Part shown: in pieces, positions 26,753 through 55,737 of the stretch
Numbering within the stretch: position 1 is the stretch's first letter
How the letters are laid out: every line of letters starts with the position of its first letter
Assembly (NCBI GenBank): GCA_020724555.1
Contig: DYGT01000003.1
Span: 21,415 to 85,414 of the forward strand
Length of the DNA stretch: 64,000 nt
Source of the DNA: Candidatus Microgenomatus sp.
GTDB lineage: Bacteria; Patescibacteriota; Microgenomatia; UBA8517
Reading direction: 5' to 3'
Notes under the pieces: generated by a model
Told to the model about the DNA's origin: nothing
Databases searched by the model: none
The model's input: only the letters and a program-made list of their open reading frames with translations
Translations under genes and position numbers: made by a program

Positions 26753-28603
26753 ATGCGAAACAACTTAACCACAGATTTAAATGAAATGCAAAAAAGGGCA
26801 GTGACCCACCCGAACGGGCCTTTGCTGGTCCTCGCCGGTGCCGGCAGCGGCAAAACAAAAGTACTTACCCATAGAGCTGCCTGGTTTATTGCCGAAAAAA
26901 AAATTGAGCCGGAGTCAATACTCCTTTTGACTTTTACAAACAAAGCCGCCGATGAAATGAAAAAAAGGATATTTGATTTATCCGGCTATATCCCTTCTTA
27001 TTCAGGTACTTTTCATAGCTTTTGTGTCAAAGTCTTAAGGCGCGACGGACACGAGCTTGGGATCCCGAAAGAATTTGTAATTTACGACCAAACCGACCAA
27101 AAAGACGTTATTAAAGAAATTCTTCACGAGATGAACCTGCCCCTCGAATCCTATAATCCAGGGAATATCAGCTACAGCATCTCTGAAGCAAAATCAATGA
27201 TGATAAGCCCTTGGGAATACGGAGAAATTGTCCAAAATGAAAAGCAAGAAAAAATATTTGCGATTTACAACCGCTATGAAAAAATCCTAAAAGATTCGGC
27301 CGCTTTGGACTTTGACGACCTTTTATTAAAAACCGTGCTTCTTTTTGAACAAAAGCCCGAGGTCCTTAAAAAATGGCAAAACCGCCTGTCGCATATTTTG
27401 GTTGATGAATGGCAAGATACAAATAAAATCCAATACACTCTTACAAAATATTTAGTAGGTAGCGGAAAAAATATTACAGCAGTTGGAGACGCCAGCCAAT
27501 CGATCTATTCTTGGCGTGGTGCCGACTATCGTAATCTAAATTATTTGCGCGATGATTATCCGGATATTACGATTATTAATCTGGAACAGAATTACCGCTC
27601 AACCCAAACAATCTTAAACGCCGCCAACAGCGTTATCTCCAAAAATTCAAGAAGCCATCCGATTTTAAAACTTTGGACCAAAAACGAAAAAGGCGAAAGG
27701 ATTAAACTTTTTAAAGCAAATAATGGGCTTGATGAGGCAAGCTACGTGATAGAAAACATAAAATCACTTATCGGCCAAGGGTACAAGAAAAGTGAGATAG
27801 CGGTTTTATACCGTACTAACGCCCAATCGCGTACCCTTGAGGAGGCATTCCTTCACGCCGGTATCCCATACCGTATTGTCGGCGGTGTCAACTTTTACGA
27901 CCGCGCTGAAATCAAAGACGTGCTTTCGTATTTGCGTTTTTTACTTAACCCCCGAGACACCGTTTCAAAGAAACGTATCCAAAAAACCGGCAAAACCCGC
28001 TACAAAGCAATTTTGACGTTTGCCCAAGAGGTGAGTATCAGTAAATTTACAACGCTTGAGCTTATGGATGCTTTGCTGGAAAAAAGCAAATATTTAGATA
28101 AATATAGCCGCGAAACCGAAGAGAACCTGGCGAGGCTCGAAAACATCAAAGAGCTGAGATCGGTCGCACGGGAATTTCCCAAGCTGGACGAATTTCTGGA
28201 AAACGTGGCGCTTGTCGAAGCCGAACAGCTGTCCAACAAAAGCCTTCACTTTGGTGGCGACAACCAAGCGCTAGTCACGCTTATGACGCTTCATGCCGCC
28301 AAAGGCCTGGAGTTTCCGGTTGTTTTCATTGTCGGTATGGAGGAAGGCCTTTTCCCCCATTCGCGCTCGCTTTTTGACGCAAACGAATTGGATGAAGAAA
28401 GGCGTCTGGCTTATGTCGGGATCACCCGCGCCAAAGAATTATTATTTTTAACTTACGCAGACAGGCGCCTTTATTTTGGCCAATGGCTCAGCAATCTCCC
28501 TTCCCGCTTTTTGATTGACATCCCTGAAGAACTTCTCAACACCATCGATATACCTGTTTCTAAAATCGAGTACAACTTTGAAGATGAAGATATAATATAT
28601 TAA
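26753..28603 (+). CDS. UvrD/PcrA-family ATP-dependent DNA helicase (short, 616 aa)
   Basis: Motifs I (AGAGSGKT), Ia, II (DEWQDTN), III, V and VI (VGITRAKE) present. Reduced 2B/C-terminal region. Confidence 0.9.
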   Translation: MRNNLTTDLNEMQKRAVTHPNGPLLVLAGAGSGKTKVLTHRAAWFIAEKKIEPESILLLTFTNKAADEMKKRIFDLSGYIPSYSGTFHSFCVKVLRRDGHELGIPKEFVIYDQTDQKDVIKEILHEMNLPLESYNPGNISYSISEAKSMMISPWEYGEIVQNEKQEKIFAIYNRYEKILKDSAALDFDDLLLKTVLLFEQKPEVLKKWQNRLSHILVDEWQDTNKIQYTLTKYLVGSGKNITAVGDASQSIYSWRGADYRNLNYLRDDYPDITIINLEQNYRSTQTILNAANSVISKNSRSHPILKLWTKNEKGERIKLFKANNGLDEASYVIENIKSLIGQGYKKSEIAVLYRTNAQSRTLEEAFLHAGIPYRIVGGVNFYDRAEIKDVLSYLRFLLNPRDTVSKKRIQKTGKTRYKAILTFAQEVSISKFTTLELMDALLEKSKYLDKYSRETEENLARLENIKELRSVAREFPKLDEFLENVALVEAEQLSNKSLHFGGDNQALVTLMTLHAAKGLEFPVVFIVGMEEGLFPHSRSLFDANELDEERRLAYVGITRAKELLFLTYADRRLYFGQWLSNLPSRFLIDIPEELLNTIDIPVSKIEYNFEDEDIIY

Positions 28604-30649: not shown

Positions 30650-33592
30650 TCAAGAGTGGATAGCATTTTGACGCGCTAAGTCTTCGCTGCAAAACATGGC
30701 ATATTCGCAATTATTCAGACAATAATAATGCCCAGAACAGGAAAAATCAGAAGATTCTATTTGCGCTTTTAGGCTAAACAGCTCATCTTCCAATTGTCTT
30801 AGTTGAACTTTTGTTCTGGTGGTTGTAATTTTTTTCTGCTCTTCAAAGTAATACAAGGACAGCTTGATTTGTTCGGGCTTTAGGCCCAAAAAGGGGGGCT
30901 CTTTTATTTTTGTTGCCGCCAGAGCGTATAGCGTGAGCTGCATATTTTTGTCCACGTCTTTCTGGCTAGGCACATTTTCTACGGTTTTATAATCAATAAT
31001 TTCAATGCCACCTTTTGTCTTATCCACCCGATCCATGGTGCCGCCAATTTTTAGCTGAATCTTCTTTTTACCCTCATTTTTAAGCAAAGGAATAACAAAA
31101 GGGTGCTCTAAAAGCAGCGGAAATTTATCTGGTTCAAAGCGTTTTTTAAAATATTGGGTCAGCATTTTTTCTGCGCTTTGGTAAACGGTTGTTTCATGGG
31201 TTTTACTTTGGTAACCAAGCCTAATCCAATTATCCTTAAGGCAGTCAATTATCAAACTTTGTGTAGGCTTAACCCCGGCTTTTACCGCGGCATAAAAATC
31301 TCTCAAGGCTGCATGCATACTGGAACCGAAACTCAGTTCTGCGGCAGGAGGGGTGGGAATATTTAAAATATACCTTAATTTGTAATGAAGCGGGCAAAGC
31401 TGAAAAGTGTTTATCTGTGAATATGATAAATAATGTACATGATGATGAGTAAGACTGTCTTTTCTCTCTTTTCTCTTTTTTAGCTTATGATTATTTTTAT
31501 AATCCACAAGACTGAGCTGTTGGCTTGCCACGCCCTCTTGGGAGACCACGTCACTGCCTAGTGCCTCAAAAATAAATTGGCTTAATTTCTTTTTGCGTTT
31601 TTCCTTACCATAATAATCAGAGGCAGTAAAATAAAGCCTATCTTTCGCCCTGGTCATCCCAACATAAAACAGCCGCCTTTCTTCCTGCAGCTGAAAATTA
31701 CCGGATGGTAAGGTTTCGGCAATTAGATCCACAGGAATAGGTAAAAGTTCTGACCGTGCCCGGGTGGGAAAGCGCTCGCTCACCAGGTTCACTAAAAAAA
31801 CAACCGGAAATTCAAGACCTTTGGCGGCATGAACAGTGAGAATGTTTACGGCATTAACCTGAGTCCAATCTTCCCCCGCGGTCAAAGGGGATTCGCCAAG
31901 CTCCAAAGATAGTTCAATCCAATCAACCACTGCAGCTACGCTTGCATCATCGTGTTGGACCTCGTAGCCTTTTAGTTTGTCAAACAAGCGCGAAATATTA
32001 TCCGCACTTTTTTGCACATTTGGAGTGTCCGGACGCAGCAAAGTTTTTAGATAACCGGTTTTGTCTAAAAAATCGTATAAAATCTGCCCTGCAGTTTCAT
32101 CTCTCATCTTTCTTAAGTGGGTATTTATTAAAGACAAAATTTCTTCTATTTTGTCTTTGGTACTTTTGCTGATTTTTATTTTGTCCAATTCCTCACAGGC
32201 TTCAAATAAAGTTAGATTGTATTTTTTAGAGTAACTTAATATGGCTGCCAAATCCCGCTCTTTTAAATTAAAATGCTTAAAGTTTAAAACCCTATAAAGG
32301 CTGAGCGAATCTTCAGGGTCATAAAGAACTTTTAAATATGAAATCAGATCCACTATTTCCGGTTCTTTAAAAAGTTTTCCCGGACCCAAAAACTGGTATG
32401 GTATGCCAAGCCTGTCAAAAGCTTTTAAAAAGCCGTCCGCGTGATTGTTGGCCCTTACTAAAATTGCAATGTCGCCATAATCATAACCGTTTTCTACTAA
32501 ATTTTGGATTTCCTGCCCCACATATTCTGACTCGTTTTCAAGCTTTTGTGCGTGTATAAACTGTATTGGCTCTCCTTTTTGTGTTTTTGCGGACGATATA
32601 AGCTTTTTATCAATATTTTCCACCACCTCAAGCCTATCCGGGTTGTTAAATCGGATCAGATTGTAGGCGTGGTCCAAAATAGTCTGAGTTGAGCGGTAAT
32701 TTTTGGTTAAAACCACCATTTTGCTTTCCGGGTAATCACGGCGAAATTGCAAAATGTTGGAAACGGCCGCACCGCGAAAACGGTATATGCTTTGGTCGTC
32801 GTCTCCCGTGGCCATAATATTCGCGCTACTGCCGGCAAGAATTTTTGCCAACTGATACTGGGAAAAATTAACATCCTGAAATTCATCTACTAAAACATAG
32901 CGGAATTGTTTTTGGTAGCGCGCCAGCACATTCGGACGGGTACGAAAAAGCTCTAAAGTTTTAACAATTAAATCACCAAAATCCATAACGCCTTCCGAGA
33001 TTTTAAGCTCTTCATAAGTCTTATATGCTTTTGCTAATTCAAGTATTTCCGCTGCTTCAGATTTCTCGCTTTCTCCATTAGTATTTTCCAAACTATTTGC
33101 ATAATCTAAATATTTTTTTACACTCACGTCTTCATCCTGCAGACGGGAAAAATGGGTGAGCATCGCCGAAATAAATTTGGTAGGATTTCCGCGCGGCCTG
33201 AAATAATCAAGCTCAAAATCATAGATATGTTGGCGGACCAGCTGGGTCGCTTCTGCCTCACTTGCAAGTTTAAAGCGGGGGTCAAGTCCGATGTGTAGCG
33301 CCTCCTCACGCAGTATTTGGTCACAAAAACTATGAAATGTCATAATCCACATATTGGTATAGCCGTAAGGCAGGGCAATATCTACCCGCTCTTCCATCTC
33401 GCGTGCGGCTTTTTCAGTAAAAGTCAAAGCCAATATTTCGTTTATGCTTACACTACCTTTCTCAATAAGTCTACAGACCCTCTCGGTTACTACGGTTGTT
33501 TTACCTGTGCCAGCTCCGGCAATCACAAGAAGCGGACCGCGGTCGTGTTCAATCGCTTTGATTTGCTCGGCGTTTAATTTTTTTGCAGCCAT
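30650..33592 (-). CDS. AddA/PcrA-like helicase-nuclease: UvrD-family SF1 helicase fused to a C-terminal PD-(D/E)xK (RecB/Cas4-like) nuclease with a 4-Cys cluster
   Basis: 980 aa. N-terminal helicase motifs (AGAGTGKTT, DEFQDVN, VGMTRAKD). C-terminal IIDYKT nuclease-core-like segment and CSGHYYCLNNCEYAMFC Fe-S cysteine cluster. Confidence 0.85.
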   Translation of the reverse strand: MAAKKLNAEQIKAIEHDRGPLLVIAGAGTGKTTVVTERVCRLIEKGSVSINEILALTFTEKAAREMEERVDIALPYGYTNMWIMTFHSFCDQILREEALHIGLDPRFKLASEAEATQLVRQHIYDFELDYFRPRGNPTKFISAMLTHFSRLQDEDVSVKKYLDYANSLENTNGESEKSEAAEILELAKAYKTYEELKISEGVMDFGDLIVKTLELFRTRPNVLARYQKQFRYVLVDEFQDVNFSQYQLAKILAGSSANIMATGDDDQSIYRFRGAAVSNILQFRRDYPESKMVVLTKNYRSTQTILDHAYNLIRFNNPDRLEVVENIDKKLISSAKTQKGEPIQFIHAQKLENESEYVGQEIQNLVENGYDYGDIAILVRANNHADGFLKAFDRLGIPYQFLGPGKLFKEPEIVDLISYLKVLYDPEDSLSLYRVLNFKHFNLKERDLAAILSYSKKYNLTLFEACEELDKIKISKSTKDKIEEILSLINTHLRKMRDETAGQILYDFLDKTGYLKTLLRPDTPNVQKSADNISRLFDKLKGYEVQHDDASVAAVVDWIELSLELGESPLTAGEDWTQVNAVNILTVHAAKGLEFPVVFLVNLVSERFPTRARSELLPIPVDLIAETLPSGNFQLQEERRLFYVGMTRAKDRLYFTASDYYGKEKRKKKLSQFIFEALGSDVVSQEGVASQQLSLVDYKNNHKLKKRKERKDSLTHHHVHYLSYSQINTFQLCPLHYKLRYILNIPTPPAAELSFGSSMHAALRDFYAAVKAGVKPTQSLIIDCLKDNWIRLGYQSKTHETTVYQSAEKMLTQYFKKRFEPDKFPLLLEHPFVIPLLKNEGKKKIQLKIGGTMDRVDKTKGGIEIIDYKTVENVPSQKDVDKNMQLTLYALAATKIKEPPFLGLKPEQIKLSLYYFEEQKKITTTRTKVQLRQLEDELFSLKAQIESSDFSCSGHYYCLNNCEYAMFCSEDLARQNAIHS

Positions 33593-33594
33593 TT

Positions 33595-34617
33595 TTAATC
33601 CTCAAGTTTTTTTGCTTCATCTTGCATTCCTTCCCCCAAGGTCTGCGTGGAATTTATTTTTTGGCCTAATTGGGAAAAAGCTGAGTAAACATTAGCCATC
33701 ATGTTATAGGCATTGTTTAAATGCCGCTGAAGCGTGGAAAGGCCATCTTCCACTCTGGCATAGTCCTTTTGAATAGCGCGGAGCGAAGACACCACTTCAC
33801 GCGCTTTTGCTTCGATTTTTTGTCCTTCAAAACTCATAAGAATGGCGCGCAAATAAGCATAAAAAGTGGTGGGGGAAACAGGAAGCACACGCCGGTCGGC
33901 TGCATATTCAAATAATTCAGTATCATTGACAATCTCGTAATATACCGCCTCCGACGGCACATACATCAAAGCGTAATCAATCGTCCCCTCATCCGTTAAA
34001 ATATATTTTTGCGATATGGCGCGGATGTGTCCGCGGACGTCGTTAATAAACTGACGCCTGATAACTTCTTTTTCTTTTTGCGTATCGCTTGCCGACATTT
34101 TTCGAAAATTCTCCATAGGAAACTTGGAGTCAATCGGGACGATCCCTGCACTGGTTTCTATGGCGGCATCCACTTTTTCACCGGAACGAAATGAATATTG
34201 CAGATGAAAACTTTGCTTGGGAAGCATTTGCTCTAAAAGCTCCTTTAGCACTTGCTCACCGATATTACCCCTTAACTTCGGGCTTTGTAAAAACTCCTGC
34301 AGATCCTTCATGCTGCGCCCGATTTCACTCATCTCGCCTATGTTTTTTTGAACGTCTGAAATTACCCGCGCCGCATTATCGAGCCTTTCGTTTAACACTT
34401 TAGTGGACTCGTGCATACGCTCATTAAAAGTTCTATTTTGTTCATCGAGACGCATATTGGTAGTTTTTAGATATTCCAAAAGTTCGTCTGAGGGTTTATT
34501 TTGGCCGGCCATCTCAGTGATTTTCTTATTAATCCATAAGAACAAGGCCACCACCCCGGCCACTAAAACAACTAATACAACTAATAGGGAATTATCCATT
34601 GGATCCCATTGTACCAA
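33595..34617 (-). CDS. rmuC: DNA recombination protein RmuC
   Basis: 340 aa. N-terminal TM, long coiled coil, and RmuC C-terminal nuclease-like domain (GIVPIDSKFPMENF...YALMYVPSEAVYYEI). Confidence 0.8.
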   Translation of the reverse strand: MVQWDPMDNSLLVVLVVLVAGVVALFLWINKKITEMAGQNKPSDELLEYLKTTNMRLDEQNRTFNERMHESTKVLNERLDNAARVISDVQKNIGEMSEIGRSMKDLQEFLQSPKLRGNIGEQVLKELLEQMLPKQSFHLQYSFRSGEKVDAAIETSAGIVPIDSKFPMENFRKMSASDTQKEKEVIRRQFINDVRGHIRAISQKYILTDEGTIDYALMYVPSEAVYYEIVNDTELFEYAADRRVLPVSPTTFYAYLRAILMSFEGQKIEAKAREVVSSLRAIQKDYARVEDGLSTLQRHLNNAYNMMANVYSAFSQLGQKINSTQTLGEGMQDEAKKLED

Positions 34618-48738: not shown

Positions 48739-49608
48739 TTACACCAAATAATATTTGCCTGCACTCTCGCGGATTAACCCTTTTAGGCTCAAATTTGTTA
48801 TAGCAATAGACACATTCGAAACGCTATCTTTAAGCTCATAAGCTATCTCGTCTAAACTTAAGGCTTCTTGGCCAAGAATTTGCCACAGCCGCAGTTCATT
48901 TCCGCTTAAATCTGCCGGGGGCGTTTGTTTTTGGGTTTTGGGTCGGGCTGATCCTAAAATATCGAGGCTACAAGTTACCAACTTTGCCTTGCCCTTTTTA
49001 ATCAACTCATTGGTGCCGCCAGACACGCTTGAGGTAATAGCACCAGGTACAGCGTAAACGCGCCTGCCTTCTTTATGCGCCAACCGAGCCGTAACCAAAG
49101 AACCACTTTTATCGGCTGCTTCAATTATTAAAACTCCAATAGTCGAAAGCCCAACCACAATCCGGTTTCTTTGGGGAAATTTCCACAGATGAGGCCTGGC
49201 TTTAGGTTCATATTCAGAAACAACGAGCCCTTTGGTCTTTAAAATATCCTCATATAAACTTATATTTTCCGGGGGGTAAACAACGTCAAGTCCGCAGCCA
49301 AAAACCGCAATGGTTTGCCCGCCAAGTGCTATGGTTTGGGCGTGCACTTCACTATCTACGCCGTACATAAAACCGGATATGGTTACCACCCTTTCCGATA
49401 CTATGTCCGGCAGCAAGCGCGCGATGACAGTCTCGCCATAGTGTGTCATCCTCCGGCTACCGACAATAGCCAGCGTTTTTGAGGTAAGTACATCCGGGTT
49501 GCCGCGTACGTATAGCTTCCTCGGCGGATTTTTAATTTTTTTTAAACGCCCGGGAAAATCTTTATCGCTTAAACTTATTTCCCGGATCGGATAAGCAAAA
49601 ATACTCAT
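48739..49608 (-). CDS. dprA: DNA-processing protein DprA (Smf)
   Basis: Rossmann-like DprA core (LAIVGSRRMTHYG, IVVGLSTIGVLIIEAADKSGSLVTARLA) plus a C-terminal winged-helix-like tail. Confidence 0.9.
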   Translation of the reverse strand: MSIFAYPIREISLSDKDFPGRLKKIKNPPRKLYVRGNPDVLTSKTLAIVGSRRMTHYGETVIARLLPDIVSERVVTISGFMYGVDSEVHAQTIALGGQTIAVFGCGLDVVYPPENISLYEDILKTKGLVVSEYEPKARPHLWKFPQRNRIVVGLSTIGVLIIEAADKSGSLVTARLAHKEGRRVYAVPGAITSSVSGGTNELIKKGKAKLVTCSLDILGSARPKTQKQTPPADLSGNELRLWQILGQEALSLDEIAYELKDSVSNVSIAITNLSLKGLIRESAGKYYLV

Positions 49609-49614
49609 TTATAT

Positions 49615-49995
49615 TTATAATTCCACACTTTCATAATGATCAATCCTTATGACTTCACCGCTACTATCTAAAACAATGGCGACTACATCAATCTGCCACA
49701 AAGGATACTTTGCCGCTATCTCACTGTTTTTTTGTAGATAAGCAAGAGCCGTGTTTTGCACCTGAAGCAGTTTACGGCGGTTTACCATTTCCTCCGGAGT
49801 CCCAAACATCACGCCTATTTTCAGCTTTACCTCAATAAAAACTAACCTATCGCCATTTAGACCAATTAAATCTATTTCCCCAAAACGGGTAGAAAAATTT
49901 TTTTCGATAATACGAAAACCTTTACGCGCAAGGTAAATTGAGGCAATCTCCTCCCCTCTTTGGCCTTTTTGGAAATTAAACTGTTTCACTTTCAA
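49615..49995 (-). CDS. yraN: YraN-family (UPF0102) PD-(D/E)xK endonuclease
   Basis: 126 aa, GEIDLIG...LVFIEVK core. Confidence 0.8.
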   Translation of the reverse strand: MKVKQFNFQKGQRGEEIASIYLARKGFRIIEKNFSTRFGEIDLIGLNGDRLVFIEVKLKIGVMFGTPEEMVNRRKLLQVQNTALAYLQKNSEIAAKYPLWQIDVVAIVLDSSGEVIRIDHYESVEL

Positions 49996-49998
49996 TTT

Positions 49999-51531
49999 TT
50001 AACTAACACCCCTTACTCTATATTGAAGAGCTTCGGCAACGTGGCTAGCTTTTATGTCTTTGGCGCCTTCCAAATCCGCAATGGTTCTTGCTACCTTAAT
50101 TAAACGGAAATAGGTTCTCGCCGAAAGACCATATGTATTAACTGCCTGTTTTAAAAGTAAAAGTGAATCCCCCGTGAGTTCGCAATATTTTTTAATATGC
50201 TTATTTTTCATATCAGCATTGACTATAATTTTATCTTTGGCAAAGCGCGCTTTTTGAATATTTCTGGCGTTAATTACTTCTCCGCGTATTTCCTTTGATG
50301 TTTTAGATTTAAAAGCCGGCATTTTCGCCATAAGCTTATCAGTATCCACCGCCGCAACCGTTAAGTGAAGATCAATCCTATCCATAAGAGGACCCGAAAG
50401 CTTGCTTTGGTAACGCATTATCATCCTGGGGCTACAAGTGCAGGCTCGTTTTTCGTCTCCCAAATATCCGCACGGGCACGGGTTACTCGCGGCAACCAAC
50501 ATAAACTGTGCCGGATAAGTTACCGAGCCGGCGGCACGCGTTATGGATACCCTACCGTCTTCCATGGGCTGCCTTAAGGCTTCAAGCGTACTTCTGGAAA
50601 ACTCGGGAAATTCATCTAAAAACATCACACCCCTATGAGCCAGGGAAATCTCCCCGGGGTGTGGATTACTGCCTCCACCGATTAAGCCTATGCGGCTTGT
50701 TGTGTGGTGGGATACACGAAAAGGACGCTTGGTCATAAGCGATGAACCGGGCGGGATATTGCCGGTCACGGAATAGATTTTTGTCACTTCCAGACTCTCC
50801 TCCTCGGTTAAAGGCGGAAGTATCCCGGCCATGGCCCGGGCAAGCATGGTTTTACCCGCACCCGGCGGACCCTGAAGGTGTACGTTATGGCCACCGGCTG
50901 CCGCGATAGTTAAGGCACGTTTGGCTTGCTCCTGGCCGATTATTTCTGAAAAATCAAACTCGGCTCTAAAAACATCTTTTTTATTTGCTATTTCCACCAA
51001 CTTATGGGGAGAAATTAAATTAACGCCGTTTAAATGCGATATTAAATCATTTAAAGTCTTAACCGGATAGACATTTATCCCCTTTACTACAGCGGCTTCA
51101 TTGGCAGAAACGTAGGGTACAAATAAATTTTTAACTTTTTGCTTTTTGGCGGACAGCGCCAAAAGCAGAACACCTTTGGTATGCCTCAAAGTCCCATCCA
51201 ATGATAATTCTCCATAAAAATATGATTTTTCTTTAGGCATGGGTATGGCCTCCATGCTCCGGAGAATTCCTATAGCGATAGGCAAATCATAGGCACTGCC
51301 TTCTTTGGGAATGTCGGCAGGGGCCAAATTGACGATAATTTTTTTATTTGGGAAATCTACGCCGCTATTGGCAAGAGCAGTTTTAACCCTTTCTTTGGCC
51401 TCTTCCACAGATTTTCCGGCCAAGCCGATAACGGAAAAACCGGGGAAACCTTTCGAAAAGACATTAACCTCGACCTCTATTGGAATTGTCTCCAGGCCAA
51501 AATGTGTAGCAGAGAGAACTTTTGTCAGCAC
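49999..51531 (-). CDS. comM: YifB/ComM-family Mg-chelatase-like AAA+ ATPase
   Basis: 510 aa. N-terminal Lon-like domain, AAA+ Walker A (LQGPPGAGKTMLA) and Walker B (MFLDEFPEF), C-terminal Mg-chelatase subunit ChlI-like domain. Confidence 0.9.
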   Translation of the reverse strand: MLTKVLSATHFGLETIPIEVEVNVFSKGFPGFSVIGLAGKSVEEAKERVKTALANSGVDFPNKKIIVNLAPADIPKEGSAYDLPIAIGILRSMEAIPMPKEKSYFYGELSLDGTLRHTKGVLLLALSAKKQKVKNLFVPYVSANEAAVVKGINVYPVKTLNDLISHLNGVNLISPHKLVEIANKKDVFRAEFDFSEIIGQEQAKRALTIAAAGGHNVHLQGPPGAGKTMLARAMAGILPPLTEEESLEVTKIYSVTGNIPPGSSLMTKRPFRVSHHTTSRIGLIGGGSNPHPGEISLAHRGVMFLDEFPEFSRSTLEALRQPMEDGRVSITRAAGSVTYPAQFMLVAASNPCPCGYLGDEKRACTCSPRMIMRYQSKLSGPLMDRIDLHLTVAAVDTDKLMAKMPAFKSKTSKEIRGEVINARNIQKARFAKDKIIVNADMKNKHIKKYCELTGDSLLLLKQAVNTYGLSARTYFRLIKVARTIADLEGAKDIKASHVAEALQYRVRGVS

Positions 51532-51647
51532 TCTGGTTTTAGTTTATATGAAAGCAAAGGTCTGAAGCAATAAAAACGGCAACTCCTAGTAGTTGGATTG
51601 TGTCAAATATAAGTTAGAATGGATATGACAAAAAGGAGGTGATTAAC

Positions 51648-51965
51648 ATGAGTTTTGACCAATACCATGAACCGGCTGAGGAAATGAAGCCGGAAACGCG
51701 CGATTTTGCCAGAATTATTGCGTCCCTAACTGAAGAAGCAGAAGCCATTTCCTGGTACGAACAAAGAATTGCGGCCTCAAAGGACAAAGAGGTAAAAGCC
51801 ATTATGCGCCACAGCATGGAAGAAGAATTTGAACATTTTGCCATAGCCCTTGAATGGTTAATCAGAAGGCTTCCCAGATGGGGTGAGGTTTTGCAGACCA
51901 TACTTTTTCAAGAAGGCGACATTTTAGAAAACGCCGAGAAAACTGAAAAAATACAAAAAAAATAA
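51648..51965 (+). CDS. encapsulated-ferritin-like (EncFtn/Flp) four-helix-bundle protein, no detectable cargo-loading peptide
   Basis: HEPAEEMKPETRDFARIIASLTEEAEAISWYEQRIAAS...MEEEFEHFAIALEWL. ExxH di-iron motifs and a WY(E/D)QR segment, as recalled for the EncFtn family. AGGAGG RBS 12 nt upstream of ATG 51648. Confidence 0.6.
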   Translation: MSFDQYHEPAEEMKPETRDFARIIASLTEEAEAISWYEQRIAASKDKEVKAIMRHSMEEEFEHFAIALEWLIRRLPRWGEVLQTILFQEGDILENAEKTEKIQKK

Positions 51966-51967
51966 TA

Positions 51968-53614
51968 TCAATCAAACAAATTGGTTTGGGCGTTTTTAAG
52001 CCTTTTAAGCTTTATCCTTTCAAGCTTTTTAAGGGCTTGGGAGTCTTTTGTAACTTTAAAATATTTGTTTATCAGACCATAAAATTGCGAGGCCTGCGTT
52101 TTTTTATTTTTTCGTTTTTTGGCCCGCGTTATCACAAGTTTATTTTTTGCACGCGTTAAAGCAACATACAAAAGCCGCTTTTCCTCTTCAAGCATCGCGC
52201 TATTTTGCGCCTTAGAGCTCGGAATTACTCCCTTTTCAAACCCCAATAGATAAACACAATCAAATTCCAGGCCTTTTGCCGCGTGTATGGTCATAACCGA
52301 AATCGCCTTTGCTTTTGGGTCATAAAAATTATTGGAGGATAAAATGTCCAGATAATTTAAAAACGCACCAATAGAGTTTTCTTGTTTATCATAATGGGCA
52401 ATCACATCAATAAACTCACCAATGTCTTTTAAACCGGCTTTTTGCGAAATATTAATAACCAAATCGCTTAATGGGACATCTTTATTAAAGGTATATTTAT
52501 CTTCTGCAAAAGATACTACTTGGGGGTTTACTTTTTCCCGATCACCGTTTAAAAAACGCAAAACATCAATAATAAAAGCAACTTTTTTATCTAAATATAT
52601 GGATTCTCCCGACACATCCTGATACGGAATATTGTTTTTGGCAAGGGTTTTTTTTATAACATTTGCCAGAAAATGGGTTCTGGCCAAGATTGCAATATTA
52701 GACAAATCCATGTCTTTTTCATCGTTATAAGTACTTGCTTCCAATAAATCAACGCCGCCCAAACTTTTTTTAATGTCGGCGACTATGTATTCTGCTTCAG
52801 AAAATTCATTAGGAGTGTGTAAAAAAATAAGCTCTCCCTTTGTTTTGTTGTGGGTTTTTAACTTAGTTTTTGTCGGAAACAAAGCTTGCGACGTTGCCAC
52901 TATCGGCTCTGCGCTTCTATACGTTTCAGCAAAAACAATTGTTTTGCTCTGATAATCTTTTTTAAACCTGCCAAAAATCATGGGCTCGCTTCCGCGGAAA
53001 GCGTAAATTGCCTGGTTGGGATCGCCTATCACTTGGACGCAAGCATTCCCGCTTATTTTTTGTAAAAATTTATATTGGGCCGGGTTAGTGTCTTGGAATT
53101 CATCAACAAAAATAAAATCATATTTAGGAAACTTGGTAAGATTCATGGCCTCAAGAATAAGATCGTCAAAATCCCAATAACCTTCTTTCTTAAGGAGCTT
53201 GTTATACTCACCACAAAGCTTTTCGGAAATCTCATCAACACTTCCGCCGCCTTTCTGCCGGGAAATCACAAGCGATGCCTCAGAAACTTCAACCTTATAT
53301 TTTTTGGCAAGTGATTTTATCAATACCAGGCGTTTGTAATCATCGATAAGATTTAGTTTTTTGTTTTGGCTCAAAAGTGAAAAACAAAAGCCATGGAAAG
53401 TGTTAATAATAACGTTTTTTTTGTGCCCCACCCTGCTTTCAAGCTCTCCGGCCGCTTTTTTTGTAAAAGTTAAGGCTAAAATATTTTTATTTTTAGTGGC
53501 TTCTTTTTTTATTTTTTCGGAAAGGGCAAGGGTCTTACCCGTTCCCGGACCAGCGATTACCGAAGCGTGAGAATTTGTGTTTAAAAAAGCTACTTGCTTG
53601 CCATTAAGTTTCAT
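51968..53614 (-). CDS. UvrD-family SF1 helicase (very short, 548 aa)
   Basis: Motif I (IAGPGTGKT), II (DEFQDTN), III, V-VI (VALTRAKN). 4-bp overlap with the upstream PHP-domain gene. Confidence 0.85.
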   Translation of the reverse strand: MKLNGKQVAFLNTNSHASVIAGPGTGKTLALSEKIKKEATKNKNILALTFTKKAAGELESRVGHKKNVIINTFHGFCFSLLSQNKKLNLIDDYKRLVLIKSLAKKYKVEVSEASLVISRQKGGGSVDEISEKLCGEYNKLLKKEGYWDFDDLILEAMNLTKFPKYDFIFVDEFQDTNPAQYKFLQKISGNACVQVIGDPNQAIYAFRGSEPMIFGRFKKDYQSKTIVFAETYRSAEPIVATSQALFPTKTKLKTHNKTKGELIFLHTPNEFSEAEYIVADIKKSLGGVDLLEASTYNDEKDMDLSNIAILARTHFLANVIKKTLAKNNIPYQDVSGESIYLDKKVAFIIDVLRFLNGDREKVNPQVVSFAEDKYTFNKDVPLSDLVINISQKAGLKDIGEFIDVIAHYDKQENSIGAFLNYLDILSSNNFYDPKAKAISVMTIHAAKGLEFDCVYLLGFEKGVIPSSKAQNSAMLEEEKRLLYVALTRAKNKLVITRAKKRKNKKTQASQFYGLINKYFKVTKDSQALKKLERIKLKRLKNAQTNLFD

Positions 53615-54897
53615 ATCAGAAGACTGAGCTGATTTTCGGCCGTATTTTTTTGAGAAAAAATTTTTACCACCCCATAAACTCCGTCATATCCCGGTTCAAT
53701 AATCAGGTCGCGTTTTCTTACTTTATCAATAGCTAAAGCCATTTTTGCACCCGAGACTCGTTCAACATCTTTTAAATCAACTTTTCTGATAAGATTAAAT
53801 TCGTCGCCCAAGTGATTTATCATGTTTAGGTACTCTTCCTGGACGCTTTTGCCGTTTACTGACTTAACGCCCAAGACATCTGCAATTATTATTTCCAAAG
53901 GAACAATATATTCCACAACCTTATGTTGGTTAGGCACATAATCAAAGGGCTTATCGGCCAACTCATCCACGCGCTGTTCAACGCCAAGGACTAATTTTTT
54001 CCCACATTTAGGGCAAATAAACTTTAAATCTTTGGCCTTTTTCGCACTCAAAGAAATCCCACATTTTTGGTGGCCACTAAAGTGGTACTTGCCCTCTTCA
54101 GGATAAAACTCAATTGTGCCAACAAAACGATCGTCGTTTGTCCGAATTGCGCCTATAATATCTTTATAATTTAATTCTGCATTTATTAGATTTGCCTCCC
54201 GCCCAAGTTTTCGCGGCGAATGTGCATCTGAATTTGAAACCAAGGTTCGCCCGTCTAAATCCGCTATCCGCCAATTCATAAAAGGATCTGATGACAATCC
54301 GGTTTCCACAGCCACGATCTTATTTGCCAGGTCTCCGAAAGCTTCCTCAACACTGTCAAATCCGCTTTTGCTGCCAAACATGGCAAACCACGGAGTCCAA
54401 ATGTGTGCCGGAAAAAACAAAGTGTCAGGATCAGAATCCAGGCTAATTTTCAAAAGGTCGTAGCTATCAAGCCCCAAAATGGGACGGCCGTCTGACTTTA
54501 GATTGCCGATTACATTTAATTTTTCATTTAGATAAGAAACGGCACTAAAACTTGAGGCAACTATTACGTTATGCAGTCTGCGGGTTTTGTCGTGGCGCTT
54601 ATAAATATTGCTTATCTCAACGGTCAGGATAAAACGCATGATATTGTTTCGCACCGATGCCGGAAGCTCACTGTCTATTTTGTCAGCAATTTGTTTTTTT
54701 AATTTAAAAAGCCCTTCTTCGGCCGGCTCCAGTTTCTCCCGAATCTCACTAAACCAAGCGGGGTGAGTAAAATCACCTGTACCAATGATATTAATGCCTT
54801 TAAGCTTTCCATAGCGATATGCTGATTCCAAATTCATGTCGCGGCTCGTAGCGCGTGAGTAATGGGAATGAAGATGGAGGTCAACGATTAGCTGCAT
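53611..54897 (-). CDS. PHP-domain protein with C4 zinc finger, endonuclease Q (EndoQ/TIGR00375)-like
   Basis: N-terminal DLHLHSHYS PHP motif and further His/Asp metal ligands. FICPKCGKK Zn-finger insert. About 428 aa as in EndoQ-type proteins. Confidence 0.65.
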   Translation of the reverse strand: MQLIVDLHLHSHYSRATSRDMNLESAYRYGKLKGINIIGTGDFTHPAWFSEIREKLEPAEEGLFKLKKQIADKIDSELPASVRNNIMRFILTVEISNIYKRHDKTRRLHNVIVASSFSAVSYLNEKLNVIGNLKSDGRPILGLDSYDLLKISLDSDPDTLFFPAHIWTPWFAMFGSKSGFDSVEEAFGDLANKIVAVETGLSSDPFMNWRIADLDGRTLVSNSDAHSPRKLGREANLINAELNYKDIIGAIRTNDDRFVGTIEFYPEEGKYHFSGHQKCGISLSAKKAKDLKFICPKCGKKLVLGVEQRVDELADKPFDYVPNQHKVVEYIVPLEIIIADVLGVKSVNGKSVQEEYLNMINHLGDEFNLIRKVDLKDVERVSGAKMALAIDKVRKRDLIIEPGYDGVYGVVKIFSQKNTAENQLSLLI

Positions 54898-54988
54898 GCC
54901 TTTAAAGCGTATCTTACACCCAGACTTTATTCAAAGGCAAAGAATCTAAGCACACATTAAACAAAATTTAAAGGAGGAGTGTTGTTAA

Positions 54989-55477
54989 TTAAACACTTTT
55001 GAGCTTGGAGGTACACTCCGGGCAACGGGTTGCGCGGTAAGGGATATTAGATAAACAATAGGGGCATTTTTTACTGCTTGGCTCTTCCGGTTTATCTGTT
55101 TCTTTTTTACCGGAAATCTGGCCGATTTGCCCTTCTAATCTGTTAAAGGCTTTTATCACCAAAAACATAGACAGGGCAACAATTAACAAAGCCAAAACAT
55201 TATTTACAAACAGCCCCCAATTTATGGTTATTGCACCTACAGATTGTGCCTGCTCAGGGCTGCTGTAGGGAGGAGGAACTGACCCTTCTTTTAGGACAAA
55301 CATTAAATTGGAAAAATCGGTTTTTCCCATTAAATACCCAATGGGGGGCATAAGGATATCGTTCACCAAAGACCGGGCAACGGTACTAAAAGCGGCTCCA
55401 ACCGTAAAACCAATGGCAAGATCTACCAGGTTTCCGCGAAGGATAAACTTTTTAAATTCTTTTATCATCGATTTCAT
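54989..55477 (-). CDS. mscL: large-conductance mechanosensitive channel MscL with C-terminal zinc-ribbon extension
   Basis: FKKFILRGNLVDLAIGFTVGAAF (MscL signature), two TM. Extra C-terminal CPYC-x12-CPEC. Confidence 0.85.
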   Translation of the reverse strand: MKSMIKEFKKFILRGNLVDLAIGFTVGAAFSTVARSLVNDILMPPIGYLMGKTDFSNLMFVLKEGSVPPPYSSPEQAQSVGAITINWGLFVNNVLALLIVALSMFLVIKAFNRLEGQIGQISGKKETDKPEEPSSKKCPYCLSNIPYRATRCPECTSKLKSV

Positions 55478-55536
55478 TAAATTGCGTATAGTATACGAAG
55501 GAATACAAATTCTTACAAGGCAAGCTTAAAAACTAA

Positions 55537-55737
55537 TTACTCTTGGGAAGGGGAAGCAGGTTTTTGGGGATTGGTGCCATAGGTTATTCCAATCTCGTCT
55601 TCAAGAGCATCTACGTCTAAGGGTTCCTCTTTTTCTTGTGAAGTTCTTTTGGGTTTTGGCGAAGCTAATTCTTCAATTTCCAATTCACCTGCCTGGGTAT
55701 AAATTTCTTCAACTGTTCTTTCTTTCATATACCGCAT
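55537..55737 (-). CDS. small acidic hypothetical protein
   Basis: 66 aa, E/D-rich, no recognisable domain. Confidence 0.25.
   Translation of the reverse strand: MRYMKERTVEEIYTQAGELEIEELASPKPKRTSQEKEEPLDVDALEDEIGITYGTNPQKPASPSQE

What the first reader, a model, noticed from the sequence alone, without database searches (positions are those of the whole stretch)
51968..54897. Translationally coupled UvrD-like helicase + PHP/Zn-finger (EndoQ-like) nuclease pair
The PHP-domain protein (HxH N-terminal motif, CPKCGKK zinc finger, about 430 aa) overlaps by 4 bp a minimal 548-aa UvrD-family helicase. EndoQ-type enzymes are normally stand-alone lesion-specific endonucleases. A fixed nuclease-helicase pair is the architecture of several phage-defence modules (for example Gabija, which pairs an ATPase-nuclease with a UvrD-like helicase). 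This could be a lesion-repair couple or an uncharacterised two-gene defence or DNA-surveillance module.
Basis: partly seen in the sequence, partly recalled or inferred. Interest (0 to 1): 0.55.

Follow-up and report, generated by a model that had tools for sequence, protein, structure and literature searches.

The report
Split EndoQ nuclease–helicase repair pair
These two overlapping genes encode a lesion-cutting DNA nuclease (endonuclease Q) and its own dedicated unwinding motor; most bacteria that have this pairing make it as one fused protein, both halves carry a tag that looks like a sliding-clamp docking motif, and the pairing suggests what happens after the nuclease cuts damaged DNA.

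Summary
A 428-aa endonuclease Q (EndoQ) homologue (53611-54897, minus strand) overlaps a 548-aa UvrD/PcrA-type helicase (51968-53614) by ATGA.

The pair is not a lineage quirk. In 80 species-level genomes from more than 12 phyla, an EndoQ homologue is followed by this helicase in 56. In 47 of those the two are one ~1050-1175-aa polypeptide. Of the 150 nearest 50%-identity cluster representatives, 129 are at least 900 aa. The window carries the split form of a widespread fusion.

The helicase is not the housekeeping PcrA. The window has a much better PcrA candidate and an AddA-like paralogue.

All catalytic, lesion-pocket and helicase motifs are intact. Each half ends in a beta-clamp-binding-type motif (EndoQ QLSLLI, helicase QTNLFD). 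The motif is found in 120/120 helicase homologues, and fusions keep both an internal and a C-terminal copy.

Neighbouring genes are heterogeneous housekeeping genes. No PADLOC model covers EndoQ, the GajB hits are generic, and EndoQ is nearly absent from plasmids and phages.

Best reading: a clamp-tethered incision-plus-unwinding repair module for deaminated or abasic bases, not a defence system. I found no paper on the helicase link. It is a new variant of a known kind.

The parts
53611..54897 (-). endoQ: 428-aa endonuclease Q family protein (PHP-type catalytic domain, Zn-finger domain, C-terminal helical domain)
   Evidence: Full-length match to PfuEndoQ 5zb8/7k30, E=4e-50. TIGR00375 1.5e-46, though its 159.5 bits is below the curated cut-off of 326.6. 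Homologues are named 'endonuclease Q family protein' and carry PF27218 MJ0043_C.
54868..54876 (-). HxH metal-binding motif (H8-L-H10) of the PHP active site
   Evidence: Aligns to PfuEndoQ H8/H10. Invariant in alignment A1 and in 40 fused or split homologues, together with E94, H109, H165, D224 and H226.
54004..54072 (-). Zn-finger ligands H276, C279, C295, C298 (includes CPKCGKK)
   Evidence: Aligns to the Cys4 finger of PfuEndoQ with the first Cys replaced by His. The H-C-C-C pattern is invariant in 40 bacterial homologues.
53614..53631 (-). C-terminal QLSLLI: beta-clamp-binding-type motif of EndoQ
   Evidence: 105/120 EndoQ homologues end in a penta- or hexapeptide clamp-type motif, against 5/265 control neighbour proteins. 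8/9 split and most stand-alone EndoQs end in QxxLF. The presence of the motif in bacterial EndoQ was noted by Shiraishi 2016 (PMC4858679).
53611..53614 (-). ATGA stop/start overlap between endoQ and the helicase gene
   Evidence: Read directly from the sequence. The close relative L001 has the same overlap. Other Patescibacteria relatives have a 0-nt gap.
51968..53614 (-). 548-aa SF1A (UvrD/PcrA/Rep-type) helicase, the dedicated EndoQ partner
   Evidence: Pfam UvrD-helicase and UvrD_C. PcrA 1pjr E=1.7e-48. AF2 pLDDT 93.4 with best Foldseek matches to PcrA/UvrD/Rep. Only 252 bits on TIGR01073, cut-off 911.
53531..53554 (-). Walker A / motif I (AGPGTGKT, residues 21-28)
   Evidence: Invariant or nearly so in 59 EndoQ-linked helicases. 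Motifs Ia-VI are likewise conserved.
53090..53104 (-). Motif II DEFQD (residues 171-175)
   Evidence: D171, E172, Q174 and D175 are invariant in 59 linked helicases.
52334..52588 (-). Shortened all-helical 2B domain (about residues 343-427)
   Evidence: In the PcrA alignment, query 355-389 corresponds to PcrA 402-503. The AF2 model shows five helices in this stretch.
51974..51988 (-). C-terminal QTNLF(D): beta-clamp-binding-type motif of the helicase, preceded by a basic helix
   Evidence: 120/120 helicase homologues carry Qxx[LMFIV][LFIMWY] in the last 12 aa, and 111 match the strict Qxx[LM]F. Controls give 5/265 and 0/265. 37/39 GTDB fusions and 118/120 Desulfobacterota-type fusions end in QLxLF. 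The motif is absent from the window's PcrA-like and AddA-like paralogues.

Best explanation
This is the two-gene (split) form of a widespread bacterial EndoQ-helicase unit that carries out sliding-clamp-associated nucleotide-incision repair of deaminated and abasic bases. The proposed steps are as follows.

(1) EndoQ recognises a flipped-out uracil, hypoxanthine or abasic site and nicks the strand immediately 5' of it, leaving a 3'-OH. This is inferred from conservation of every catalytic and lesion-pocket residue of the crystallised archaeal enzyme.

(2) The dedicated SF1A helicase loads at that nick on the undamaged strand. By homology it is a 3'-to-5' translocase like PcrA and UvrD. It unwinds ahead of a clamp-bound polymerase and peels off the strand that carries the lesion at its 5' end, much as PcrA does at a RepD nick or UvrD at a MutH nick. 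This step is inferred.

(3) The flap is removed by a 5' nuclease and the nick is ligated. This step is inferred and no partner was identified.

Both proteins end in a beta-clamp-binding-type motif, so in the split form they can be brought together on the two pockets of one clamp dimer. That would reproduce the tethering which the fusion achieves with a disordered linker. Motif presence is shown; binding is inferred. The ATGA overlap would keep the two proteins in fixed stoichiometry.
For: EndoQ identity: a full-length match to PfuEndoQ. Metal ligands E94/H109/H165 (Pfu E76/H84/H139), the D224-x-H226 pair and lesion-pocket residues H165/G200/S202 (Pfu H139/G169/S171, per PMC8307549) are invariant.

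Functional linkage: the helicase lies directly downstream in 56/80 loci from more than 12 phyla, and 47 of these are fused in one ORF. 129 of the best 150 cluster representatives are at least 900 aa, and 138 have a Walker A after residue 420. Thousands of fused proteins sit in databases. Independent gene calls in two other Patescibacteria genomes show the same pair.

Active helicase: all SF1 motifs are conserved in 59 sequences and the fold is PcrA/UvrD/Rep-like.

Dedicated paralogue: the window also holds a PcrA-like gene (708 bits on the pcrA model) and an AddA-like gene.

Clamp motifs: found in 120/120 helicases, 118/120 fusions and 105/120 EndoQs, against 5/265 controls. Fusions keep an internal QxxLF exactly where stand-alone EndoQ ends (112/120).

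Flexible tether: the linker 424-473 has pLDDT about 30 and the fusion model has pTM 0.55.

Precedent: archaeal EndoQ binds PCNA through a C-terminal PIP box and is stimulated by it (PMC4858679). The discoverers proposed helicase-mediated removal as one possible downstream route (PMC4357722). B. subtilis YqxK is enriched on abasic-site DNA (PMC10220248).

Housekeeping character: neighbours are heterogeneous and non-defence. The helicase NJ tree groups sequences by phylum. EndoQ and helicase domain divergences correlate (r=0.85). EndoQ is essentially absent from plasmids and phages.
Against: There is no biochemical evidence for any helicase-linked EndoQ. Substrate range, helicase polarity and clamp binding are all inferred by homology or motif. 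About 17 of 73 loci with enough downstream sequence have EndoQ without an adjacent helicase, so the helicase is not obligatory. The helicase domain evolves much faster than EndoQ (36% against 57% mean identity), which is also compatible with a looser or different role. The window EndoQ scores below the TIGR00375 curated cut-off. The plasmid and phage collections are biased toward taxa in which EndoQ is rare.
Confidence: 0.68

Rival explanations
1. Anti-phage or foreign-DNA restriction. EndoQ would cut incoming DNA that contains uracil, hypoxanthine or other non-canonical bases, such as dU-containing phage genomes. The helicase would then enlarge the nick into lethal damage, in a Gabija-like nuclease plus UvrD-like helicase logic.
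For: Nuclease-helicase pairs are common in defence systems. The helicase matches GajB HMMs (E=7e-79). An antiviral role was suggested for Bacillus EndoQ in the literature (as cited in PMC8307549). The helicase half diverges quickly.
Against: GajB models score the window's PcrA-like paralogue higher (355 against 264 bits), so those hits are generic. No PADLOC model hits the EndoQ domain and there is no GajA/OLD partner. The 141 immediate neighbours in about 75 loci fall into 153 Pfam families with no recurrent defence gene. EndoQ gives 0/50,697 phage hits and 1/72,556 plasmid hits. EndoQ is highly conserved (57-65% identity across phyla), and the helicase tree groups by phylum. Clamp-binding-type tails point to the host replication and repair machinery. 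The local GC content is not anomalous.
Confidence: 0.1
2. The module does repair, but the helicase has a different job. It would act as an ATP-driven translocase that carries EndoQ along DNA to scan for lesions, or that strips the tightly product-bound EndoQ off the nick so it can turn over. It would not unwind the damaged strand.
For: The fusion places the two activities on one chain. The shortened 2B domain could change how unwinding and translocation are balanced, because 2B is regulatory in Rep and UvrD (established knowledge). Lesion endonucleases often stay bound to their product.
Against: The roughly 50-aa disordered linker and pTM of 0.55 argue against a rigid scanning machine. The split form, with a separate clamp motif on each half, fits sequential action on a shared platform better. 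PcrA/UvrD-type enzymes classically act after a nick has been made.
Confidence: 0.17
3. Coincidental adjacency. The helicase is simply the organism's housekeeping PcrA/UvrD and happens to sit next to endoQ.
For: The helicase belongs to the UvrD/PcrA/Rep fold class. An unbootstrapped NJ tree does not cleanly separate EndoQ-linked helicases from the window's PcrA-like gene.
Against: Fusion in 47/80 loci and in about 90% of the nearest cluster representatives. A far better PcrA candidate lies at 26753-28603 (708 against 252 bits). The clamp-type tail is shared by all linked helicases and absent from the paralogues.
Confidence: 0.02

Closest known systems
Archaeal endonuclease Q (P. furiosus / T. 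kodakarensis EndoQ; PDB 5zb8, 7k30-7k33)
   Same: Same family over the full length (E=4e-50). It shares the PHP catalytic residues, the lesion pocket (H/G/S), a zinc finger and a C-terminal helical domain. Both have a clamp-interaction motif at the extreme C-terminus: a PIP box for PCNA in archaea, and a QLSLL-type beta-clamp motif here.
   Different: The archaeal enzymes are stand-alone proteins with no dedicated helicase. Their zinc finger is Cys4, whereas here it is His-Cys3. Their clamp partner is PCNA rather than DnaN. Identity is only about 35%.
Bacillus EndoQ (B. pumilus EndoQ, B. subtilis YqxK)
   Same: These are bacterial EndoQ homologues with demonstrated or reported EndoQ-like activity (PMC4357722; Shiraishi 2017 as cited in PMC8307549). 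YqxK is enriched on abasic DNA (PMC10220248). A beta-clamp motif was noted in bacterial homologues (PMC4858679).
   Different: They are described as stand-alone enzymes. I found no paper that mentions a helicase partner or a fusion.
EndoQ-UvrD fusion proteins in databases (e.g. Desulfonema magnum 1145-aa 'UvrD-helicase domain-containing protein')
   Same: Same two modules in the same N-to-C order, with the same catalytic motifs and the same clamp-type motifs. The window pair is the split version.
   Different: The fusion is one polypeptide with a disordered linker of about 50 aa. Its helicase part is about 630-750 aa with a larger 2B domain. The window has two genes with an ATGA overlap and a 548-aa helicase.
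PcrA / UvrD / Rep (SF1A helicases) acting at nicks: RepD-PcrA in rolling-circle replication, MutH/MutL-UvrD in mismatch repair, UvrABC-UvrD in NER
   Same: The fold and all helicase motifs are shared. The logic is also shared: a site-specific nick followed by 3'-5' helicase unwinding and resynthesis.
   Different: The 2B domain is shortened and 1B is trimmed. There is no C-terminal Tudor-like domain; a basic helix plus a QxxLF tail takes its place. The gene is physically or genetically fused to its nickase. It is not the housekeeping copy.
Gabija (GajA OLD-family ATPase-TOPRIM nuclease + GajB UvrD-like helicase)
   Same: A two-gene nuclease plus UvrD-like helicase arrangement. The helicase matches GajB HMMs.
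   Different: The nuclease is unrelated (a PHP/EndoQ enzyme, not OLD/TOPRIM). The GajB HMM hits are generic to UvrD helicases. There is no defence-island context. The clamp-type motifs and conservation pattern point to repair.

Membership tests
Endonuclease Q (EndoQ / TIGR00375 / PF27218 MJ0043_C) | Full-length homology to characterised EndoQ (PHP-like domain, Zn-finger domain, C-terminal helical domain) | tested here: met
   phmmer against PDB: 5zb8/7k30, E=4e-50, residues 5-414 against 5-383. TIGR00375 E=1.5e-46 over profile positions 3-373/374, but 159.5 bits is below the 326.6 equivalog cut-off. Homologues carry PF27218.
Endonuclease Q (EndoQ / TIGR00375 / PF27218 MJ0043_C) | Catalytic metal ligands (Pfu H8, H10, E76, H84, H139, D193, H195) | tested here: met
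   Window H8, H10, E94, H109, H165, D224 and H226 align to them and are invariant in A1 and in 40 homologues.
Endonuclease Q (EndoQ / TIGR00375 / PF27218 MJ0043_C) | Lesion pocket that excludes T and A (Pfu H139, G169, S171) | tested here: met
   Window H165, G200 and S202 are invariant. The residue roles are taken from PMC8307549.
Endonuclease Q (EndoQ / TIGR00375 / PF27218 MJ0043_C) | Four-ligand zinc finger | tested here: met
   H276-C279-C295-C298. The first ligand is His instead of Cys in all 40 bacterial sequences examined.
Endonuclease Q (EndoQ / TIGR00375 / PF27218 MJ0043_C) | Cleavage of the phosphodiester bond 5' of dU, dI or AP sites | not testable with these tools
   This needs enzyme assays.
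SF1A UvrD/PcrA/Rep helicases | Helicase motifs I, Ia, II, III, IV, V and VI | tested here: met
   AGPGTGKT, DEFQD, GDPNQAIYAFRGS, YRS, HAAKGLEF and VALTRAK are conserved in 59 sequences. Pfam PF00580 and PF13361.
SF1A UvrD/PcrA/Rep helicases | 1A/1B/2A/2B fold | tested here: met
   AF2 pLDDT 93.4, pTM 0.90. Foldseek best hits are PcrA 1qhg, UvrD 2is6 and Rep 1uaa, E about 1e-37, TM about 0.7. The 2B domain is about 70 aa shorter than in PcrA.
Housekeeping PcrA / UvrD (NCBIfam equivalogs TIGR01073 / TIGR01075) | Score above the equivalog cut-off, or at least the best PcrA-like gene of the genome | tested here: not met
   251.6 bits against a cut-off of 911.2. Window gene 26753-28603 scores 707.8. 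The C-terminal Tudor-like region of PcrA is not aligned.
Gabija (GajA + GajB) | GajA OLD-family ATPase/TOPRIM nuclease encoded next to GajB | tested here: not met
   The adjacent nuclease is EndoQ and has no PADLOC hit. No PADLOC model covers the EndoQ part of a fusion.
Gabija (GajA + GajB) | Helicase specifically GajB-like rather than generically UvrD-like | tested here: not met
   The best GajB model gives 264 bits to this helicase but 355 bits to the window's PcrA-like paralogue. GajB structures are not among the top 50 Foldseek hits.
Beta-clamp-binding proteins (CBM consensus QL[SD]LF / QLxLxL) | Consensus motif in a disordered terminus, conserved among orthologues | tested here: met
   Helicase QTNLFD and EndoQ QLSLLI. 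Found in 120/120 helicases, 105/120 EndoQs and 118/120 fusions, against 5/265 controls. The tails and the linker have low pLDDT in the fusion model.
Beta-clamp-binding proteins (CBM consensus QL[SD]LF / QLxLxL) | Physical binding to DnaN | not testable with these tools
   This needs pull-down, ITC or SPR, or a multimer structure prediction.

The most novel reading that the evidence does not exclude
EndoQ, so far treated as a mainly archaeal stand-alone enzyme, may exist in bacteria chiefly as a nickase-helicase machine. Its two halves, whether fused or split, would each dock on the beta sliding clamp as a toolbelt. Together they would form a widespread, glycosylase-independent, replication-associated pathway for removing uracil, hypoxanthine and abasic sites. 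In this reading the helicase performs the long-unknown step after EndoQ incision.
Probability: 0.45. Interest if true: 0.7.

Novelty: new variant of a known kind. Interest (0 to 1): 0.6.

Why it matters
The steps that follow EndoQ incision have been open since the enzyme was discovered in 2015. Its discoverers sketched a helicase-dependent route but had no candidate helicase (PMC4357722). A conserved gene fusion, or an operon as here, with an SF1A helicase names that candidate directly and makes the pathway testable with two or three purified proteins.

It also changes the picture of where EndoQ lives. Helicase-linked EndoQ is common across bacterial phyla (960 clusters at E<=1e-30), including the genome-reduced Patescibacteria. 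Retention of a two-gene module in such small genomes implies real selective value.

A UvrD-family helicase with a canonical C-terminal clamp-binding-type motif would, from my own knowledge of the known clamp-partner list and not from a check made here, be a new kind of clamp client.

In practical terms, thousands of proteins now labelled 'UvrD-helicase domain-containing protein', and stand-alone EndoQ homologues wrongly labelled 'DNA helicase UvrD/PcrA', could be re-annotated.

Tried and rejected
(1) Phylogeny. A neighbour-joining tree without bootstrap was built from 63 helicase cores to ask whether EndoQ-linked helicases form a clade separate from PcrA. It was unresolved: the tree is star-like, and the window's PcrA-like gene falls next to two EndoQ-adjacent helicases (L017, L024). 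I use it only for the observation that sequences group by phylum.

(2) Gabija and PADLOC. The strong GajB HMM hits looked like support for defence at first. They were rejected as generic after the PcrA-like paralogue scored higher.

(3) Literature. Searches for EndoQ with helicase, UvrD, fusion or phage, for PHP domain with UvrD and defence, for TIGR00375 and for yqxK found no description of the helicase link. Only open-access papers and bioRxiv were searchable, so an earlier description elsewhere cannot be excluded.

(4) Competence link. The nearby DprA/YraN/ComM genes suggested a tie to transformation. This was rejected because neighbours are not conserved in other loci.

(5) Promoter and terminator scan of 51400-55700. 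It gave fewer hits than shuffled controls and nothing informative inside the pair.

(6) Frameshift artefact. The split could have been a sequencing frameshift in a fused gene. This was rejected because relatives show the same split with their own stop, start and EndoQ clamp-type tail.

(7) The AF2 model of a fusion gave no confident inter-domain geometry (pTM 0.55), so no interface could be inferred.
Full report
**Observation.**
One is 53611..54897 (-) at 428 aa and the other is 51968..53614 (-) at 548 aa. The junction reads CAG CTC AGT CTT CTG ATA TGA, with the helicase ATG overlapping the EndoQ stop as ATGA at 53611-53614. The HxH motif (DLHLHSHYS) and CPKCGKK are present.

**The nuclease.**
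It is a full-length endonuclease Q homologue. phmmer against the PDB gives PfuEndoQ 5zb8/7k30 at E=4e-50 over residues 5-414. NCBIfam TIGR00375 matches end to end but below its equivalog cut-off. Homologues are named 'endonuclease Q family protein' and carry PF27218 MJ0043_C.
- The metal ligands E94, H109 and H165 correspond to Pfu E76, H84 and H139.
- The D224-x-H226 pair and the lesion-pocket residues H165, G200 and S202 (Pfu H139/G169/S171; roles from PMC8307549) are invariant in every homologue examined.
- The zinc finger is His-Cys3 rather than Cys4, and this holds in all 40 bacterial sequences.

**The helicase.**
It carries Pfam UvrD-helicase and UvrD_C domains and every SF1 motif. Its AlphaFold model (pLDDT 93.4, pTM 0.90) is closest to PcrA, UvrD and Rep (E about 1e-37). 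AddA, RecB and AdnB score lower, and GajB is not in the top 50. Compared with PcrA it has a 2B domain about 70 aa shorter and no C-terminal Tudor-like domain.

**It is an extra paralogue, not the housekeeping helicase.**
The window holds two more UvrD-family genes. Gene 26753..28603 (+) scores 708 bits on the PcrA model, against 252 bits for the EndoQ-linked gene. Gene 30650..33592 (-) is a UvrD plus PD-(D/E)XK fusion that sits next to RmuC.

**Conservation of the pair.**
A scan of one genome per GTDB species with an EndoQ alignment found 531 confirmed relatives. The best 80 loci come from more than a dozen phyla: Patescibacteria, Desulfobacterota, Chloroflexota, Planctomycetota, Omnitrophota, Binatia, Nitrospirota, Bacteroidota, Actinomycetota, Bacillota, Myxococcota, KSB1 and Latescibacterota.

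I used tblastn with the window helicase plus ORF tracing on these loci:

| Arrangement downstream of EndoQ | Loci (of 80) |
|---|---|
| Helicase fused to EndoQ in one ORF (about 1045-1175 aa) | 47 |
| Helicase as a separate adjacent gene on the same strand | 9 |
| No adjacent helicase | 24 |

- One of the nine split loci, L001, has the same 4-nt overlap as the window.
- About 7 of the 24 loci without a helicase simply end too soon. The rest are mostly Saccharibacteria or Parcubacteria-type lineages and some Nitrospirota.

An exhaustive HMMER search of 1.84 billion 50%-identity cluster representatives found 960 EndoQ clusters at E<=1e-30. Of the best 150, 129 are at least 900 aa and 138 carry a Walker A after residue 420. 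A search with the Desulfonema magnum fusion returned thousands of proteins of about 1130-1150 aa, named only 'UvrD-helicase domain-containing protein', 'DNA 3'-5' helicase' or 'TIGR00375 family'. This explains why stand-alone EndoQ homologues are often mislabelled 'DNA helicase UvrD/PcrA'. Independent gene calls on two other Patescibacteria genomes show EndoQ followed with no gap by a 537-aa or 470-aa UvrD helicase, in unrelated neighbourhoods.

The window therefore carries the split form of a widespread fusion. This is a classic Rosetta-stone argument for a shared function.

**Clamp-binding-type motifs.**
The helicase ends ...KRLKNAQTNLFD and EndoQ ends ...NQLSLLI. I tested the last 12 aa for a loose pattern, Qxx[LMFIV][LFIMWY], and a strict one, Qxx[LM]F:

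| Protein set | With motif |
|---|---|
| Helicase homologues | 120/120 loose, 111 strict |
| Unrelated neighbour proteins (control) | 5/265 loose, 0/265 strict |
| GTDB fusions (C-terminal QLxLF) | 37/39 |
| Desulfobacterota-type fusions (C-terminal) | 118/120 |
| Split helicases | 9/9 |
| Split EndoQs | 8/9 |
| EndoQ homologues (penta- or hexapeptide variant) | 105/120 |

- The helicase motif always follows a basic stretch.
- Most stand-alone EndoQs also carry the motif.
- The window's PcrA-like and AddA-like paralogues lack it.
- Fusions keep an internal GQKxLF about 17 residues after the PGYDG motif, exactly where stand-alone EndoQ ends (112/120). Each module therefore keeps its own motif whether fused or split.

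In the AlphaFold model of a fusion, the linker (residues 424-473, starting at the internal motif) and the C-terminal tail have pLDDT below 50, and pTM is only 0.55. The two enzymes look like beads on a flexible string.

This parallels archaeal EndoQ, which binds PCNA through a C-terminal PIP box and is stimulated by it. The same paper noted beta-clamp consensus sequences in bacterial EndoQ C-termini (PMC4858679). What appears to be new is the motif on the helicase and its duplication across the two halves.

**Repair or defence.**
Several lines argue against defence:
- PADLOC gives no hit on the EndoQ protein or on the EndoQ part of a fusion.
- GajB models hit the helicase at 264 bits but hit the window's PcrA-like paralogue harder at 355 bits, so they are generic.
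- The 141 immediate neighbours of the related loci fall into 153 Pfam families. None is shared by more than five loci, and the mix is housekeeping (SLT, LeuRS, FtsZ, DnaN, response regulators). PADLOC hits among them are scattered and generic.
- tblastn of EndoQ finds one hit in 72,556 plasmids, on a 733-kb Brevibacillus replicon, and none in 50,697 phage genomes.
- EndoQ is strongly conserved. Mean pairwise identity is 57% for the EndoQ domain against 36% for the helicase domain within the same fused polypeptides, and the two divergences correlate at r=0.85. The fast-evolving helicase is therefore an intrinsic property, not evidence of an arms race in the split pair.
- The helicase NJ tree groups sequences by phylum (no support values).
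- Local GC content is unremarkable.

**Proposed mechanism.**
EndoQ nicks 5' of a flipped-out deaminated or abasic nucleotide, leaving a 3'-OH. The partner helicase, a 3'-5' translocase by homology, loads on the intact strand at the nick. It unwinds in the direction of repair synthesis and displaces the strand that carries the lesion at its 5' end. A clamp-bound polymerase fills in, a 5' nuclease removes the flap and ligase seals the nick.

The clamp dimer offers two pockets, so the split proteins can be co-tethered as the fusion is. The ATGA overlap would keep their stoichiometry fixed.

What is shown: gene structure, homology, residue and motif conservation, fusion frequency and genomic context. 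What is inferred: substrate specificity, helicase polarity, clamp binding and the order of events.

The discoverers of EndoQ listed helicase-mediated removal as one possible downstream route (PMC4357722). B. subtilis YqxK is enriched on abasic DNA in a proteomic pull-down (PMC10220248).

The main rival within repair is that the helicase drives lesion scanning or EndoQ turnover rather than strand removal. The defence reading remains possible but has no positive support.

**Novelty and limits.**
EndoQ and UvrD-type helicases are both well known, and the fusion is visible in databases under generic names. In the searchable open-access literature I found no description of the EndoQ-helicase linkage or of the helicase clamp motif. 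Subscription-only papers could not be searched. I therefore rate it a new variant of a known kind.

Further limits:
- No whole-genome view of the window organism was available, so I could not check its ung, nfi, polA or dnaN complement.
- Only the best 80 of 531 or more loci were examined.
- The helicase tree has no support values.
- No multimer structure prediction was available.

Noticed in passing
window 26753-28603 (+), 30650-33592 (-), 33595-34617 (-): There are two further UvrD-family genes within 25 kb of the finding. One is a 616-aa PcrA-like helicase (708 bits on TIGR01073) and is the likely housekeeping copy. The other is a 980-aa UvrD plus PD-(D/E)XK (AddA/RecB-like) helicase-nuclease lying 2 nt downstream of an RmuC-family gene. 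RmuC plus AddA-like is a second nuclease-helicase adjacency in this window.
   Followed up: partly
window 54989-55477 (-): The MscL channel gene directly upstream of endoQ encodes 162 aa, with a C-terminal extension containing CPYC...CPEC, an apparent zinc ribbon that the Pfam MscL model does not cover. The close relative L001 also has MscL upstream of EndoQ.
   Followed up: no
window 51639-51965 (+): An EncFtn-like (encapsulin-associated ferritin) gene of 108 aa converges on the helicase gene with a 2-nt gap. No encapsulin shell gene is adjacent: the flanking genes are ComM on one side and the helicase on the other.
   Followed up: no
window 48739-51531 (-): A run of DNA-uptake and recombination-type genes lies just downstream of the pair on the same strand: DprA (48739-49608), YraN/UPF0102 (49615-49995) and ComM/YifB Mg-chelatase-like (49999-51531). 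This neighbourhood is not conserved in the other EndoQ loci.
   Followed up: partly
loci L004-L079 and proteins P0241-P0360 (fusions), about residues 420-430: Fused EndoQ-helicase proteins keep an internal GQKxLF clamp-type motif at the exact point where stand-alone EndoQ proteins end, followed by a predicted disordered linker of about 50 aa. They therefore carry two clamp-type motifs per chain.
   Followed up: yes
proteins P0006, P0046, P0051, P0054, P0075, P0119 and others: Many stand-alone EndoQ homologues of about 430 aa are named 'DNA helicase UvrD/PcrA' by JGI or NCBI although they have no helicase domain. This is probably annotation transfer from the fused proteins.
   Followed up: partly
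L001 (CAZSLA010000012.1) and L003 (CAZTBN010000051.1): The closest genome-collection relatives of the window pair (75% and 56% EndoQ identity, both in split form) are labelled 'uncultured Gammaproteobacteria' and 'Pseudomonadales' MAGs. All other close relatives are Patescibacteria, so these look like taxonomic mislabels or mis-binned contigs.
   Followed up: no
L025 1417-4338 and L030 2260-5178: In two MAGs with stand-alone EndoQ, a helicase-nuclease of about 973 aa with a C-terminal Cys cluster (AddA/AddB-like) lies about 4 kb upstream of EndoQ. It is not adjacent and has no QxxLF tail.
   Followed up: no
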